IMG/VR virus record: IMGVR_UViG_3300012928_000004 | Location: 1 to 62,298 of that record | DNA from: a virus | Lineage: Duplodnaviria; Caudoviricetes | Direction: 5' to 3' (one strand) | DNA length: 62,298 bases | Shown: piece after piece, positions 14,155 to 23,130 of the stretch | How the letters are laid out: each line of letters starts with the position of its first letter | Numbering within the stretch: the stretch's first letter is position 1 | The notes under the pieces: generated by a model | The model's database searches: none | What the model saw: the letters and a program-made list of their open reading frames with translations, nothing else | Told to the model about the DNA's origin: nothing | Position numbers and translations under genes: made by a program

Positions 14155-14320
14155 CATCACCGTTACACTAAGCAAGGCACTCCAAGAAGACTTTGAGTCT
14201 TGGTTGGAGTGTTGTCAATCACTACAAGTCACACCTAAGATAAATTCATTTCTACATTATGTCGCAAACTACGGGACAAGCAAAGATGGGAGTCACAGTA
14301 TTCAATCAAAAGAAAGTTGA
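14138..14320 (+). CDS. Small hypothetical protein overlapping nrdA end and nrdB start
   Basis: MVAKSDITVTLSKALQEDFESWLECC... fills the nrdA-nrdB gap. Confidence 0.5.
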   Translation: MVAKSDITVTLSKALQEDFESWLECCQSLQVTPKINSFLHYVANYGTSKDGSHSIQSKES

Positions 14321-15422
14321 TTCTACAAAACAACCAATGTTTTTTGGTGCACCCTTGGGGATGCAACGTTATGATGAGTACAGGTATCCTGACTTTGACA
14401 GACTAACTCAATCTCAACTAGGATTTTTCTGGAGACCTGAAGAGGTTTCTCTACAGAAAGACCGCGCCGATTATAAAACACTAAACGATCAACAGAAGCA
14501 CATCTATACTTCCAACCTGAAGTATCAAATCCTCCTTGACTCTGTGCAGGGTCGAGGACCAGGCATGGCATTCTCTCCTTTCTGCTCACTCCCTGAGTTG
14601 GAAGGTTGCATGGGTGTCTGGCAATTTATGGAGCAAATTCACTCACGCTCATACACACACATCATTAAAAACGTTTACCCAGATCCTGGTGAAGTCTTTG
14701 ATAAAGTCTTAGACGACGAAAGAATCATGGCACGTGCACAGTCAGTAACAAAAGCATATGACGATTTCCTAGCGGCAGCAGGTGACTGGGCAGGTGGTAA
14801 CATGTGGCAAGGTAGTTGGAAAGATTGTCCTACAGCAGACAGCACTAGACAACACATGAAACGACTGCTCTACAGAGCAGTGGCCAACGTAAATATTTTA
14901 GAAGGTATTAGATTTTATGTATCCTTCGCTTGCAGTTTTGCCTTTGGCGAATTAAAACTGATGGAAGGGTCAGCAAAAATTATTGCTTTGATAGCAAGAG
15001 ACGAATCACAGCATCTTAACATCACTCAGAAAATTCTCAGAAAATGGAGAGAAGGTGATGATGAAGAGATGCAGGTTATTGCAGAAGAAGAAAAAGAAAA
15101 CGTCCGTCAGATGTTTGCAACAGCAGTTGCAGAGGAAAAAGAATGGGCAACCTATCTCTTCTCACAAGGCAGTATGATTGGTCTTAACGAGAGACTTCTC
15201 TCACAGTATGTTGAATGGATTGCAAATCGTAGATTGAAGAATCTTGGTTTGGCACCTCTGTTTGATATTCCCGCAAGAAATAACCCATTGCCATGGACCC
15301 AGCACTGGCTAAATAGCAAAGGGCAACAGAATGCTCCTCAGGAAACTGAGATTGAATCTTACATTGTGGGGGGAATCAAACAGGATGTCGAAGCAAACAC
15401 CTTCGCGGGATTTTCACTTTGA
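14286..15422 (+). CDS. nrdB: Ribonucleotide reductase class Ia beta subunit
   Basis: FFWRPEEV, LDSVQGR, EQIHSRSY, LEGIRFYVSF, RDESQH, APQETEIESY. Confidence 0.97.
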   Translation: MGVTVFNQKKVDSTKQPMFFGAPLGMQRYDEYRYPDFDRLTQSQLGFFWRPEEVSLQKDRADYKTLNDQQKHIYTSNLKYQILLDSVQGRGPGMAFSPFCSLPELEGCMGVWQFMEQIHSRSYTHIIKNVYPDPGEVFDKVLDDERIMARAQSVTKAYDDFLAAAGDWAGGNMWQGSWKDCPTADSTRQHMKRLLYRAVANVNILEGIRFYVSFACSFAFGELKLMEGSAKIIALIARDESQHLNITQKILRKWREGDDEEMQVIAEEEKENVRQMFATAVAEEKEWATYLFSQGSMIGLNERLLSQYVEWIANRRLKNLGLAPLFDIPARNNPLPWTQHWLNSKGQQNAPQETEIESYIVGGIKQDVEANTFAGFSL

Positions 15423-15834
15423 ATTTGAGCATTACTGGGGCGGCACTCCGTCCGAGGTGCAACAATTAGAAAGGTGGGGAAAGAAACAGAAAGGAATTAT
15501 CAGATTCCTTGTGCTGAATTTCTTCCTACCTTGGTATGCTAAATGGTGGTTGGATTATAAACTCCAACGAGAGATGTCTTCTGTAGATCGGCAAGCAAAA
15601 GAGTTGCTCGATCATTGGAATGAAGAAGACAAACCACAAACAATCATGGAAACCAGACCATCAGAGGTCGAAGGGTTGGATGACATCTCTATCAGACATA
15701 GAGCGTTTACCTCTTGGCCTCCACCCGACCAATGGTATCAGGGACCACTTGAAGTTTTTACACAAACTGAAGAGGGACTTGAAACGCCAACCACATCCGA
15801 CACCTTACCCGACCCGTGGCAGGAGAAGGAGTAA
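15385..15834 (+). CDS. Hypothetical protein
   Basis: ORF from ATG 15385 overlapping nrdB end. Confidence 0.55.
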   Translation: MSKQTPSRDFHFEFEHYWGGTPSEVQQLERWGKKQKGIIRFLVLNFFLPWYAKWWLDYKLQREMSSVDRQAKELLDHWNEEDKPQTIMETRPSEVEGLDDISIRHRAFTSWPPPDQWYQGPLEVFTQTEEGLETPTTSDTLPDPWQEKE

Positions 15835-15848
15835 AAAAAAGAAGTAGC

Positions 15849-15877
15849 TTGCTAAATAGTTGAGCATGTGCTATCAT
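15849..15877 (+). promoter_or_regulatory. Sigma70-type promoter with overlapping late TAAATA, driving the riboswitch leader
   Basis: TTGCTA, 17 bp, TATCAT; TAAATA at 15853-58; predicted TSS ~15884, just before CGTTC. Confidence 0.6.
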
Positions 15878-15883
15878 ATGCTT

Positions 15884-16107
15884 ATCGTTCATCCCCTAGG
15901 GGACGCAAGTAAGTCGCGGAACGGAGCGTTCATCCCATGGTTGAGTTACTACTATACTCCAATCTCTCTTGTGCAGATGCTAAGGCATTCTTGGGCAAGG
16001 TAAGGAGGCATGAAGACTTGGAACCCCAAGTCAAAATTGAGTTAATCGAGACTATGAAGGAGGCAACTCCTGATTGTCCATGGGACGCAAACGACTAAAG
16101 GAACGGG
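15884..16107 (+). ncRNA. Double glutamine-riboswitch-like element (glnA / Downstream-peptide related)
   Basis: Two CGTTCATCCC...GGGACGCAA...GGAACGG units (15886-15924, 15927-16106), AGTCG/CGACT complementarity, upstream of a YRG-motif DUF4278-type peptide. Confidence 0.75.
15937..16098 (+). CDS. 53-aa hypothetical protein embedded in the structured RNA
   Basis: MVELLLYSNLSCADAKAFLGKVRRHEDLEPQVKIELIETMKEATPDCPWDAND*; GGAG 10 nt upstream; not in the supplied ORF track. Confidence 0.7.
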   Translation: MVELLLYSNLSCADAKAFLGKVRRHEDLEPQVKIELIETMKEATPDCPWDAND

Positions 16108-16139
16108 CCTAAAAATCCAATTACTTTAGGAGTAAACAA

Positions 16140-16283
16140 ATGACTACTATCACATACAGAGGTGTCAAATATGACGCCGAGCAGTACAAGGCAAAGGTAC
16201 TTGAGGAGAGAGACCAACGCAACCGTCACGATATGATGTATCGTGGTATCAAGGTTGAGAGGAAATTCGCCAGCAAGTCCTGA
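16140..16283 (+). CDS. DUF4278-type small protein (two YRG motifs)
   Basis: MTTITYRGVKYDAEQYKAKVLEERDQRNRHDMMYRGIKVERKFASKS*; AGGAG RBS at 16128-32. Confidence 0.85.
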   Translation: MTTITYRGVKYDAEQYKAKVLEERDQRNRHDMMYRGIKVERKFASKS

Positions 16284-16296
16284 GCGTGATATCAAT

Positions 16297-16320
16297 AGAG
16301 GGCGAGTGCCCTCTTTTTTA
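16297..16320 (+). terminator. Rho-independent terminator
   Basis: AGAGGGC-GAGT-GCCCTCT followed by T-run. Confidence 0.8.
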
Positions 16321-17678: not shown

Positions 17679-17752
17679 GACTCAATAGCTCAGCTGGATA
17701 GAGCAACTGCCTTCTAAGCAGTCGGTCGTAGGTTCGAATCCTACTTGAGTCG
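17679..17752 (+). tRNA. trnR: tRNA-Arg (anticodon TCT)
   Basis: Acceptor GACTCAA/TTGAGTC, D arm GCTC/GAGC, anticodon arm ACTGC-CTTCTAA-GCAGT, GGTTCGAATCC T-loop; CCA not encoded. Confidence 0.95.
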
Positions 17753-22986: not shown

Positions 22987-23029
22987 AGGATGAGTCGTTA
23001 CACAACGACACAATCCATACTTTTGACTC

Positions 23030-23130
23030 CTTAAACCGAGACCTACAGGGTCATTAAACACGTCTCTCATACCTACACTGGAGGGTGGTGTAGGAATACT
23101 TACCTCAGTGCATACCCCGCACTCATACTT
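23030..23130 (+). ncRNA. PhotoRC-II-like RNA motif in psbA 5' leader
   Basis: GAGAC..GACC-TACAG-GGTC..GTCTCTCAT, CCTACAC-TGGAGGGTG-GTGTAGG, AGTGC-ATACCCC-GCACT hairpins; the loop GGGT and loop ACCC can pair. Confidence 0.75.

What the first reader, a model, noticed from the sequence alone, without database searches (positions are those of the whole stretch)
15884..16107. Double glutamine-riboswitch-like RNA that wraps a protein-coding gene inside one stem
Seen in sequence: two repeats of CGTTC-A-TCCC...GGGA-CGCAA...GGAACG. In unit 1 (15886-15923) P2 is a tiny TCCCC-TA-GGGGA hairpin. In unit 2 (15927-16105) P2 is TCCCATGG...CCATGGGA, and its ~140-nt loop holds most of a 53-aa ORF (15937-16098). 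The ORF's AUG is in the 5' strand of P2, its GGAG RBS lies between GAACG and CGTTC, and its stop lies in CGACTAA. AGTCG in unit 1 (15912-16) is complementary to CGACT in unit 2 (16092-96). The RNA can therefore fold as two kissing aptamers, or as one glnA-type three-way junction (P1 15886/16105, AGTA/AAA loop-E-like element) whose P3 is shared with an inner, circularly permuted aptamer. Established: glnA and Downstream-peptide motifs bind glutamine in marine cyanobacteria, and Downstream-peptide RNAs precede YRG peptides. Inference: a two-pocket nitrogen sensor in which folding and translation of the embedded ORF are mutually exclusive, coupling it to the downstream DUF4278 gene. I do not know of a description of this architecture.
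Basis: partly seen in the sequence, partly recalled or inferred. Interest (0 to 1): 0.9.

Follow-up and report, generated by a model that had tools for sequence, protein, structure and literature searches.

The report
Gene-wrapping double glutamine riboswitch in cyanophages
A marine cyanophage carries a glutamine-riboswitch-like RNA built from two interlocked sensor halves, one of whose stems closes around a complete small protein gene, a layout kept in hundreds of related phages and invisible to standard riboswitch searches.

Summary
Window 15886-16106 holds two copies of the glutamine-aptamer core. The second copy's stem (P2b, 15933-40 with 16078-85) closes over a real 53-aa gene (phrog_504). 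In 108 homologues P2b pairs 1-4 are 99-100% canonical with compensatory changes, and AGUCG:CGACU (P3) is 99.8% paired. A targeted scan gave AGUCA with UGACU in 80 of 81. The last five codons (WDAND) have frozen synonymous sites, and the motif persists when the frame or the ORF is absent. ORF-less relatives score as one Glutamine-I aptamer (RF01739, 39-46 bits) with the second core inside P3. So the nested, strand-swapped reading fits best. Glutamine binding, switch direction and the effect on ORF translation are inferred, not shown. Tandem glutamine riboswitches are in print. I found no description of a shared P3 or of ORFs inside the stems. Verdict: new variant of a known kind, high interest.

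The parts
15849..15877 (+). sigma-70-type promoter-like site (TTGCTA, 17 nt, TATCAT, TG before the -10); the transcript would start about 15884
   Evidence: Homologous loci show TTGACT...TATAAT at the same distance from CGUUCA. The start site is inferred.
15886..15890 (+). 5'a strand of P1 (CGUUC)
   Evidence: Invariant in 108 of 108 rows.
15892..15903 (+). P2a hairpin UCCCC-UA-GGGGA
   Evidence: All 3 counted pairs have compensatory changes. In 40 of 173 relatives this stem encloses a ~66-aa ORF instead.
15904..15911 (+). CGC linking strand, then AAGUA (E-loop half found only in the first 3' half)
   Evidence: (aligned to the Rfam Glutamine consensus CGGAAGUA)
15912..15916 (+). P3 5' strand AGUCG
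   Evidence: Pairs with 16092-96. 99.8% of cells paired, pair 5 GC 76, AU 31, UG 1. Targeted scan: 80 of 81.
15918..15924 (+). 3'a strand GGAACG plus the following G (partner of the linchpin C by homology)
   Evidence: Invariant.
15923..15926 (+). GGAG, Shine-Dalgarno-like, 10 nt before the ORF's AUG. It lies in the fixed 3-nt linker between GGAACG and CGUUC.
   Evidence: The linker is 3 nt in 80 of 86 versions, but its sequence varies (GAG, GAU, GAA, GUU, GGG, GUA).
15927..15931 (+). 5'b strand of P1 (CGUUC)
15933..15940 (+). P2b 5' strand UCCCAUGG, containing the AUG at 15937-39
15937..16098 (+). ORF1, 53 aa, phrog_504, function unknown. Three-helix model with two invariant Cys.
16078..16085 (+). 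P2b 3' strand CCAUGGGA (codons Pro-Trp-Asp)
   Evidence: Pairs 1-4 are 99-100% canonical and three of those four covary; pair 5 is paired in 79 of 108 and also covaries. The full 8 bp of this window occurs in 11 of 115.
16086..16091 (+). second CGC linking strand, then AAA
16092..16096 (+). P3 3' strand CGACU (codons Asn-Asp plus the U of the stop)
16097..16099 (+). AAA (GAA in most relatives), the E-loop half found only in the second 3' half; includes the last two bases of the stop codon
16100..16106 (+). 3'b strand GGAACG plus G
16095..16129 (+). alternative hairpin H4: CUAAAG (16095-16100) with CUUUAG (16124-16129). It overlaps P3, the E-loop half and the first G of 3'b.
16129..16132 (+). 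GGAG, Shine-Dalgarno of the DUF4278 gene; its first G is the last base of H4
16140..16283 (+). DUF4278 (IF17-like, two YRG motifs) gene, 47 aa
16297..16320 (+). intrinsic-terminator-like hairpin and T run

Best explanation
This is the leader and first cistron of a small cyanophage transcription unit: promoter, RNA sensor, ORF1, DUF4278 gene, terminator. The sensor is a Glutamine-I-class riboswitch in a nested, strand-swapped double form.

The outer three-way junction is CGUUCA (5'a) - P2a - CGC AAGUA - P3 - AAA - GGAACGG (3'b). The P3 helix (AGUCG:CGACU) leads into a second, circularly permuted core: GGAACGG (3'a) - 3-nt linker - CGUUCA (5'b) - P2b - CGC AAA. Here P2b closes over the whole of ORF1. 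Its AUG lies in the 5' strand, its Trp-Asp codons form the 3' strand, and its stop codon is the U of P3 plus the first two bases of the E-loop half.

Shown by covariation: helices P2a, P2b, P3 and the rival hairpin H4.

Inferred by homology: both cores keep every nucleotide that contacts glutamine in the solved Glutamine-I and -II structures, so the RNA most likely binds glutamine, probably two molecules.

Inferred mechanism: without glutamine, H4 (CUAAAG:CUUUAG) forms and part-occludes the Shine-Dalgarno of the DUF4278 gene. Glutamine stabilises the nested fold, which consumes the 5' strand of H4 and frees that site. This would be an ON switch, as shown for both known classes. The same fold buries ORF1's AUG, and ribosomes on ORF1 would prevent P2b and P3 from forming. 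ORF1 and the IF17-like peptide would therefore be controlled in opposite senses, or sequentially.
For: Conservation:
- 388 phage records match the region.
- 305 records hold an ORF1 homologue, searched with residues 1-47 only.
- 16 of 16 fetched phage loci show the full layout.

P2b, in 108 ORF-containing versions:
- Pair 1: UA 104, CG 4.
- Pair 3: CG 97, UG 7, UA 3.
- Pair 4: CG 69, UA 28, UG 8, AU 2.
- Whole structure 98.5% paired, against 27-54% when the partners are slid; 0 of 500 shuffles reach it.

P3:
- 115 of 117 distinct versions are fully paired, with compensatory AGUCA:UGACU, AAUCG:CGAUU and AGACU:AGUCU.
- Targeted scan: AGUCA with U in 80 of 81, AGUCU with A or G in 4 of 4.
- Matching 3-nt insertions on both strands add two pairs in L070, L089 and L345.

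RNA constraint rather than protein constraint:
- The 3' half is kept when the ORF stops earlier, reads in another frame, or is absent.
- Third-position entropy is 0.17 bit in the last five codons against 1.53 in the interior. Terminal Asp is GAC in 90 of 90 and 94 of 96, while two interior Asp positions use GAT 63:7 and 45:5.

Nested fold:
- RF01739 aligns ORF-less relatives as one aptamer with 41 nt inside P3, at 46.4, 40.2 and 39.4 bits (gathering score 35).
- AAGUA occurs only in 3'a and RAA only in 3'b.
- The linker is 3 nt in 80 of 86.
- The nested fold is -72.8 kcal/mol, two side-by-side aptamers -70.3, the MFE with H4 -75.7. The inner hairpin and P2b form by themselves once the outer helices are fixed.
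- RNAalifold predicts the 3'a:5'b hairpin.

H4:
- The stop-codon middle base and its partner are G:C 52, A:U 34, G:U 25, A:C 0.
- 96.8% paired on the formal alignment.

Context and literature:
- The downstream gene is DUF4278, the usual cargo of glutamine riboswitches.
- ON switching and the binding contacts come from passages of PMC6212724 and PMC6698751.
Against: - No ligand binding, structure probing or translation data exist for this RNA.
- The P1 strands are invariant and identical in both copies. Covariation therefore cannot say whether 5'a pairs with 3'b (nested) or with 3'a (side by side).
- The thermodynamic optimum of the window is not the nested fold. It is local 5'a:3'a plus P2b plus H4, better by 2.9 kcal/mol, with a modest z-score of -2.09.
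- In the window itself Rfam scores are below the gathering scores.
- Only 4-5 base pairs of P2b are conserved, and they must close a loop of 130 nt or more.
- H4 hides only the first G of the Shine-Dalgarno.
- H4 could also coexist with a 5'b:3'b pseudoknot in a Glutamine-II-like fold. Which conformer binds the ligand is therefore open.
- The inner core lacks an E-loop.
- A2 and A3 contain loci from a scan targeted at position 5 of P3, which inflates the share of AU at that pair.
- RNA-library contigs show presence only.
Confidence: 0.6

Rival explanations
1. These are two ordinary side-by-side glutamine riboswitches, a pseudo-cooperative doublet as catalogued for this class. 5'a pairs with 3'a and 5'b with 3'b. 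The second merely has a long P2 insert. AGUCG:CGACU is at most a loop-loop contact.
For: Tandem glutamine riboswitches are common: 157 doublets and 4 triplets (passages of PMC9481103). Weinberg 2010 also notes tandems. Co-transcriptional order favours local 5'a:3'a, and the MFE contains it. Unit 1 alone matches RF01739 and RF01704 at E about 4e-4.
Against: P3 covaries, so the two units are physically coupled. In this fold P3 would be a pseudoknot, with one nucleotide joining its end to GGAACG. Neither unit alone has both E-loop halves. A 3-nt linker leaves no room for a separate expression platform. Infernal scores the nested alignment 11-18 bits higher, 39.4-46.4 bits on the ORF-less relatives against 28.9 bits for unit 1 alone in the window. 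The side-by-side fold is 2.5 kcal/mol worse than the nested one.
Confidence: 0.2
2. Only the outer junction is a glutamine aptamer. The inner GGAACG-NNN-CGUUCA-P2b-CGC block is not a second pocket but a built-in competitor. Its strands can invade the outer P1, so that ORF1 translation or folding kinetics sets whether the single sensor can assemble.
For: The inner core lacks the AGUA/GAA E-loop, having only AAA or ACA and a single C at the junction. All four P1 strands are interchangeable. Local 5'a:3'a is in the MFE.
Against: The inner core keeps CGUUCA, a covarying P2, CGC and GGAACGG as strictly as the outer one does. That is more than a decoy strand would need. Glutamine-II also binds without an E-loop (passages of PMC6698751).
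Confidence: 0.15
3. The conserved flanks reflect protein constraints (a WDAND C-terminus and a translation-initiation region) and chance complementarity, not an RNA structure around the ORF.
For: WDAND is nearly invariant at protein level.
Against: The 3' half persists outside any ORF, in other frames and in ORF-less elements. Synonymous sites are frozen only there. Protein ends change (WGAND, WDAQV, QDAND) exactly where the RNA partner changes.
Confidence: 0.02

Closest known systems
Glutamine-I riboswitch (glnA RNA motif, Rfam RF01739)
   Same: CGUUCA / GGAACG P1, P2 next to it, a CGN linking strand, AAGUA...GAA E-loop halves, a P3 helix, and a DUF4278/IF17-like gene downstream. ORF-less phage relatives pass the gathering score.
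   Different: The P3 loop holds a second, circularly permuted aptamer core. The third base of the linking strand and the base after GGAACG are C and G, as in the Glutamine-II consensus, not G and C. P2 may enclose a 48-75-aa ORF. The window copy scores 28.9 bits for unit 1 only.
Glutamine-II riboswitch (Downstream-peptide motif, RF01704)
   Same: CGUUCA-P1-CGC...CGA then a helix around GGAACGG. It sits upstream of short YRG/DUF4278 peptides in marine picocyanobacteria. H4 plus 5'b:3'b has the same pseudoknot topology.
   Different: There is no spacer between the H4 5' strand and GGAACG, and the 3' loop is 17 nt or more. Scores are below the gathering score for the second unit (28.1 bits). H4 competes with a covarying P3, which Glutamine-II lacks.
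Tandem glutamine riboswitch doublets (Sherlock et al. 2022, PMC9481103, passages read)
   Same: Two glutamine aptamer cores in a row before one gene. These phage elements may well be among the 157 doublets counted there.
   Different: That paper classes the doublets as independent units with multiple expression platforms. Here the linker is 3 nt, one covarying helix and one E-loop are built from both units, and there is a single platform (H4). The words 'nested' and 'phage' do not occur in its main text. Its supplements could not be seen.
Tandem glycine riboswitch (listed as 'dual aptamer, one expression platform' in Table 1 of PMC9481103)
   Same: Two homologous aptamers for one amino acid, joined by inter-aptamer contacts, with one expression platform.
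   Different: By my recollection, the glycine aptamers are side by side and dock through tertiary contacts. Here the units share a Watson-Crick helix and may swap P1 strands. No ORF lies inside a glycine aptamer.
Long-distance base pairing across a coding region in RNA phage MS2 (recalled, not looked up)
   Same: A helix closed across a translated cistron, so that ribosome passage decides whether a downstream start is open.
   Different: No ligand-binding pocket is involved, and the genome is RNA.
ORFs carried in peripheral loops of group I introns (recalled, not looked up)
   Same: A structured RNA tolerates a whole gene in a variable loop.
   Different: Intron ORFs are mobile endonuclease genes. 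Here the start and stop codons are built into the conserved helices, and the ORFs are small phage proteins.

Membership tests
Glutamine-I riboswitch (RF01739) | Covariance-model score at or above the gathering score (35 bits) | tested here: not met
   Window: 28.9 bits, unit 1 only, E-value mode. ORF-less relatives score 46.4, 40.2 and 39.4 bits, in 3 of 6 ORF-less loci tested. None of 5 ORF-containing loci is detected. The shortfall is explained by the 180-nt insert in P3, which the model cannot span.
Glutamine-I riboswitch (RF01739) | P1 CGUUC:GAACG, P2 next to it, and P3 between AAGUA and GAA (three-way junction with E-loop) | tested here: met
   All elements are present when 5'a is read with 3'b. 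P2a and P3 covary. The E-loop half is AAA in the window and GAA in 81 of 117 relatives.
Glutamine-I riboswitch (RF01739) | Nucleotides that contact glutamine (C1:G pair, G2:C pair with the middle G of the linking strand, long-range linchpin pair) | tested here: met
   Present in both cores when compared with the contacts named in PMC6698751. The linchpin is C...G as in class II.
Glutamine-I riboswitch (RF01739) | Selective binding of L-glutamine | not testable with these tools
   No binding assay is available. Inferred from conserved contacts only.
Glutamine-I riboswitch (RF01739) | Position in the 5' leader of a DUF4278/IF17-like or nitrogen gene | tested here: met
   DUF4278 scores 26.0 bits against a cut-off of 25.3. 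Context as described in PMC6212724.
Glutamine-II riboswitch (RF01704) | Score at or above 33 bits, and a P2 helix enclosing GGAACGG in an H-type pseudoknot | tested here: inconclusive
   Unit 1 scores 25.7 bits. The second unit of L121 scores 28.1 bits with mispaired P2 columns. One relative's first unit scores 35.7 bits. H4 gives the topology and covaries, but with different loop lengths.
Independent tandem (pseudo-cooperative) riboswitch doublet | Each aptamer folds alone and has its own expression platform | tested here: not met
   The linker is 3 nt in 80 of 86. P3 and the E-loop are shared. There is a single H4 before a single Shine-Dalgarno.

The most novel reading that the evidence does not exclude
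One RNA fold makes two glutamine pockets from strand-swapped halves. It can assemble only when the embedded ORF (or ORFs) is free of ribosomes. The element would then integrate glutamine level with its own translation status. It would switch a phage mini-operon between two small proteins (ORF1 and ORF0) and an IF17-like peptide aimed at host glutamine synthetase. That would be a ligand-gated, translation-gated long-range structure, of a kind not described for any riboswitch.
Probability: 0.3. Interest if true: 0.9.

Novelty: new variant of a known kind. Interest (0 to 1): 0.8.

Why it matters
- Riboswitch aptamers are treated as compact 5'-leader domains. Here a conserved aptamer helix spans a translated gene, and the start and stop codons are part of the sensor. 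That offers a natural system for studying competition between ribosomes and ligand-dependent RNA folding.
- It changes the picture of riboswitch use by phages. A 2017 survey reported only two glutamine aptamers in cyanophage genomes and concluded that phages rarely use riboswitches (PMC5473149, passage read). Yet 388 phage records match this region. The ORF-containing forms escape Rfam: 0 of 5 detected.
- It suggests that the many glutamine 'doublets' may be single nested sensors, which bears on how their dose-response should be read.
- It ties three families of small phage proteins of unknown function (phrog_504, phrog_6471, and phrog_545/5049 = DUF4278) to host nitrogen status during infection.

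Tried and rejected
- Rfam at gathering threshold on the whole window found only PhotoRC-II and a tRNA.
- The search for related loci with the ORF1 protein alignment failed: no stretch was conserved enough. I used DNA patterns instead.
- The genome-contig scan with CGGAACGGNNCGTTCA was too loose. Whether hosts carry the nested form is therefore untested.
- The scan for position-3 variants of P3 gave one unrelated match.
- A CGC:GCG helix in unit 1, which would make it class II-like, was rejected. CGC becomes CAC, CGUA or CUC without a partner change, while P3 covaries.
- RNAalifold paired GUCA of P3 with UGGC at the next start codon. Other classes do not keep this pairing, so I treat it as chance.
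- ORF1 function: Pfam gave nothing significant. PHROGs gave only phrog_504, unknown function. The large protein search gave 3 unnamed clusters. The AlphaFold model has three helices, pLDDT 82. Foldseek against the PDB gave a best E of 5.5. No function is assigned.
- Metatranscriptome contigs: 20 runs of 7 studies hold part of the stretch. In the 4 runs laid, one contig is identical over 15910-16106. Others are relatives with a 9-letter or 22-letter hairpin in place of ORF1. Contigs cannot show ends, strand or level, and DNA may be present in the libraries, so this is not counted as proof of transcription.
- Parts without cover in these runs mean nothing.
- The P1 partner choice could not be resolved by any variant. 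Linking-strand variants (CGA, CGG) have G after both GGAACG copies.
- Papers not held: Ames & Breaker 2011 and Ren et al. 2015. What I say of them is recalled or second-hand from PMC6698751 and PMC6212724.
- Supplements of Weinberg 2010 and Sherlock 2022 are closed. They may show these doublets.
- None of the listings or passages read describes a shared P3 or an ORF inside an aptamer stem.
Full report
What is in the window.

The window is a fragment of a T4-like cyanophage. It carries nrdB at 14259-15422, a PhotoRC-II RNA and a tRNA. G000 is this 62-kb viral contig alone.

- CGUUC-A-UCCCC-UA-GGGGA-CGC-AAGUA-AGUCG-C-GGAACG-G.
- Then AG.
- Then CGUUC-A-UCCCAUGG, the ORF interior, and CCAUGGGA-CGC-AAA-CGACU-AAA-GGAACG-G.

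The only two CGTTCAYC and the only two GGAACGG matches of the 62-kb window are these. A promoter-like site (15849-77) precedes the element. A terminator-like hairpin (16297-16314 plus a T run) follows the next gene. That next gene is a 47-aa DUF4278 protein. Rfam sees only unit 1, below threshold: Glutamine 28.9 bits against 35, Glutamine-II 25.7 against 33.

Conservation.

- blastn finds the region in 388 phage records, nearly all Synechococcus or Prochlorococcus phages.
- Eight fetched loci from eight genera all keep the same order of parts.
- A search with ORF1 residues 1-47, which excludes the part that overlaps the RNA motif, finds one copy in each of 305 records.
- Eight further loci, picked from eight further phages down that ranking, all carry both flanks.
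Four are chance hits and four are truncated. The other 112, together with the window and seven of the eight phage loci fetched earlier, give 120 parsed elements, 117 of them distinct.

The long-range stem around the ORF (P2b).

In 115 distinct versions pairs 1-4 are canonical in 114-115:
- Pair 1: UA 109, CG 6.
- Pair 3: CG 111, UG 2, UA 2.
- Pair 4: CG 87, UA 19, UG 5, AU 2, GC 1.
- Pair 5 is canonical in 97 of 115. Beyond that there is no conservation.
- The window's 8 contiguous pairs occur in 11 of 115.

On a MAFFT alignment of 108 ORF-containing versions including the window (A3), the named structure is 98.5% paired. It is 27-54% paired when the partners are slid. No shuffle in 500 reaches it on any measure.

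Changes in the protein end follow the RNA partner. CCCC pairs with GGGG (WGAND), UCCU with AGGA (Q/K-DAND), and UCUAUG with CAUAGA.

The ORF is a gene, and its end is RNA.

In 96 distinct ORF1 sequences the interior shows the coding signature. Entropy by codon position is 1.21, 0.72 and 1.53 bit. The invariant Cys, Glu and Cys each use both synonymous codons. I had kept only ORFs ending DAND, DAHD or GAND, which biases the residues but not the codon choice.

The last five codons are frozen (0.25, 0.16, 0.17 bit):
- Ala is GCA in 96 of 96.
- Asp is GAC in 90 of 90 and 94 of 96, although two interior Asp positions use GAT 63:7 and 45:5.

The 3' half GACGCA-A/C-ACGACU-R-AAGGAACGG is also kept in three other situations:
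- The ORF stops earlier at a UAG that overlaps the P2b strand (4 cases).
- The 3' half lies wholly downstream of the stop (L024).
- The region is read in another frame (L105).

In 130 of 137 ORF1 copies the stop codon is the U of CGACU plus RA. The same U-R-A-A is present in ORF-less elements. The aptamer therefore supplies the stop codon.

ORF1 is phrog_504, of unknown function. Its model is a three-helix bundle with two invariant cysteines. It has no informative structural neighbour.

The ORF is optional, and the other stem can hold one too.

Among 173 distinct complete elements:
- Junction-anchored set: ORF in both stems 33, ORF in P2b only 75, no ORF 1.
- Set from the scan targeted at P3 variants: ORF in both 1, ORF in P2a only 6, ORF in P2b only 30, no ORF 27.

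The P2a ORF (about 66 aa, phrog_6471) starts 3-5 nt after CGUUCA. It ends in a stop that overlaps the P2a 3' strand in 23 of 40, or in the UAA inside AAGUAAG in 11 of 40. The base before its AUG covaries with the stop codon: UCUUAUG with CAUAAGA, UCUCAUG with CAUGAGA, UCCUAUG with CAUAGGA. Pair 3 is CG 21, UA 12.

The helix that joins the two units (P3).

AGUCG:CGACU is fully paired in 115 of 117 distinct versions. Compensatory forms are AGUCA:UGACU (4), AAUCG:CGAUU (1) and AGACU:AGUCU (1, where the protein end becomes WDAQV). There are also several G-U forms. Two versions have one mismatch.

As a prediction test I scanned for elements whose fifth base is not G:
- Of 81 readable AGUCA elements, 80 have U opposite and 1 has C.
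- All 4 AGUCU elements have A or G opposite.

On A3 the helix is 99.8% paired. A3 includes loci from that targeted scan, so the share of AU is inflated, though the pairing rate is not. Three lineages have 3-nt insertions on both strands. These add a mismatch and two further pairs, the last being U:A, U:A or A:U.

Which fold.

P1 strands are invariant, so covariation cannot choose partners. Five observations favour the nested fold, in which 5'a pairs with 3'b and 3'a with 5'b:
1. Infernal aligns ORF-less relatives to RF01739 as one aptamer: CGUUCA-P2-CGCAAGUA-AGU[41 nt]ACU-GAAGGAACG. Scores are 46.4, 40.2 and 39.4 bits, against 28.9 bits for unit 1 alone in the window.
2. AAGUA occurs only in the first 3' half and RAA only in the second. 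A single C separates P3 from the first GGAACG in most versions. Only the nested fold therefore assembles an E-loop and a nested P3.
3. The linker between GGAACG and CGUUC is 3 nt in 80 of 86 elements that were not selected on it. Its sequence varies, and ORF-less forms, which need no ribosome site there, keep the length too.
4. With ViennaRNA the nested fold is -72.8 kcal/mol, two side-by-side aptamers are -70.3, and the unconstrained optimum is -75.7. Fixing only the outer helices makes the inner hairpin and P2b appear.
5. RNAalifold on 33 ORF-less versions predicts the 3'a:5'b hairpin, P2a, P2b and H4. The nested structure is 99.2% paired there.

Against: the optimum contains local 5'a:3'a, and co-transcriptional order would form it first.

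CURAAG (16095-16100) pairs with CUUYAG (16124-29), directly before GAG of the DUF4278 Shine-Dalgarno. The middle base of the stop codon and its partner are G:C 52, A:U 34, G:U 25, and never A:C, in 111 scorable versions. Six others scored lower, one of them truncated. On A3 the helix is 96.8% paired, with GC 44, AU 41, GU 16 and other 2 at that pair.

Its 5' strand shares CU with P3. It also contains the RAA E-loop half and the first G of GGAACG, so it cannot coexist with the nested aptamer. Two mutually exclusive, covarying structures next to a ribosome site are the signature of a riboswitch.

Both known glutamine classes are ON switches for IF17-type genes (passages of PMC6212724 and PMC6698751). 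The same direction follows here if glutamine stabilises the nested fold. That direction is inference. H4 could also coexist with a 5'b:3'b pseudoknot of class II topology.

What is known and what is new.

Already in print:
- Glutamine riboswitches occur in T4-like cyanophages (PMC9964418 and PMC9602691, passages read).
- Tandem copies are noted (Weinberg 2010).
- 157 doublets and 4 triplets are counted and classed as pseudo-cooperative with multiple expression platforms (Sherlock 2022).

A 2017 survey found only two glutamine aptamers in cyanophage genomes.

In seven literature searches, and in the passages read, I found no description of a P3 shared between the two units, of a circularly permuted inner core, or of ORFs inside the aptamer stems. 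Ames & Breaker 2011, Ren 2015 and all supplements could not be read, so prior mention cannot be excluded.

Rfam at its gathering threshold detects 3 of 6 ORF-less loci and 0 of 5 ORF-containing loci. This explains the under-count in phages.

Verdict.

The architecture is supported by covariation. The ligand and the regulatory logic are inferred by homology. I file it as a new variant of the Glutamine-I riboswitch, of high interest.

Noticed in passing
window 23012-23107 (+) and 17679-17752 (+): A PhotoRC-II RNA (73.4 bits) and a tRNA (72.4 bits). These are the only Rfam matches of the window at gathering score.
   Followed up: no
L012:7821-8018, L014:2394-2591 (-), L024:5438-5635 and 30 more loci: In about a quarter of related phages the first stem (P2a) also encloses a gene. 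It is about 66 aa, phrog_6471, with a hydrophobic N-terminus and two Cys about 35 residues apart. By eye it resembles ORF1 in pattern, so the two may be paralogues.
   Followed up: partly
L121, L005, L028, L044, L047, L107 and others, between GGAACGG and the 3' strand of H4: Some versions carry an extra conserved insert of about 30 nt with its own hairpin (AACGGAUCC-stem-GAGAAGGUUAA-like) inside the H4 loop. Its role is unknown.
   Followed up: no
window 15891/15904, and relatives L034, L065, L125: The A after CGUUC and the C of CGC flank P2. They change together to G and U: (A,C) 112, (G,U) 3. This suggests an A-C / G-U wobble-type pair closing P2.
   Followed up: partly
L006, L008, L010-L016 and many others, downstream gene: In many phages the regulated gene is not the 47-aa DUF4278 type. 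It is a 54-55-aa protein (phrog_545) with two YRG motifs and only a weak DUF4278 match (18.1 bits).
   Followed up: partly
window 15331-15834 (+): A 167-aa ORF (phrog_6464, unknown function) overlaps the end of nrdB by about 90 nt in another frame. It ends just before the promoter-like site of the riboswitch unit.
   Followed up: no
A2 columns 37-40 with 148-151: RNAalifold pairs GUCA of the P3 5' strand with UGGC at the start codon of the DUF4278 gene in the AGUCA class. The window has AGUC with GACU at 16142-45. This may be chance or a third alternative pairing.
   Followed up: no
L132 (two places: 956-1242 and 1665-1803): One viral contig carries two separate copies of the element, one with an ORF in P2b and one without.
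   Followed up: no
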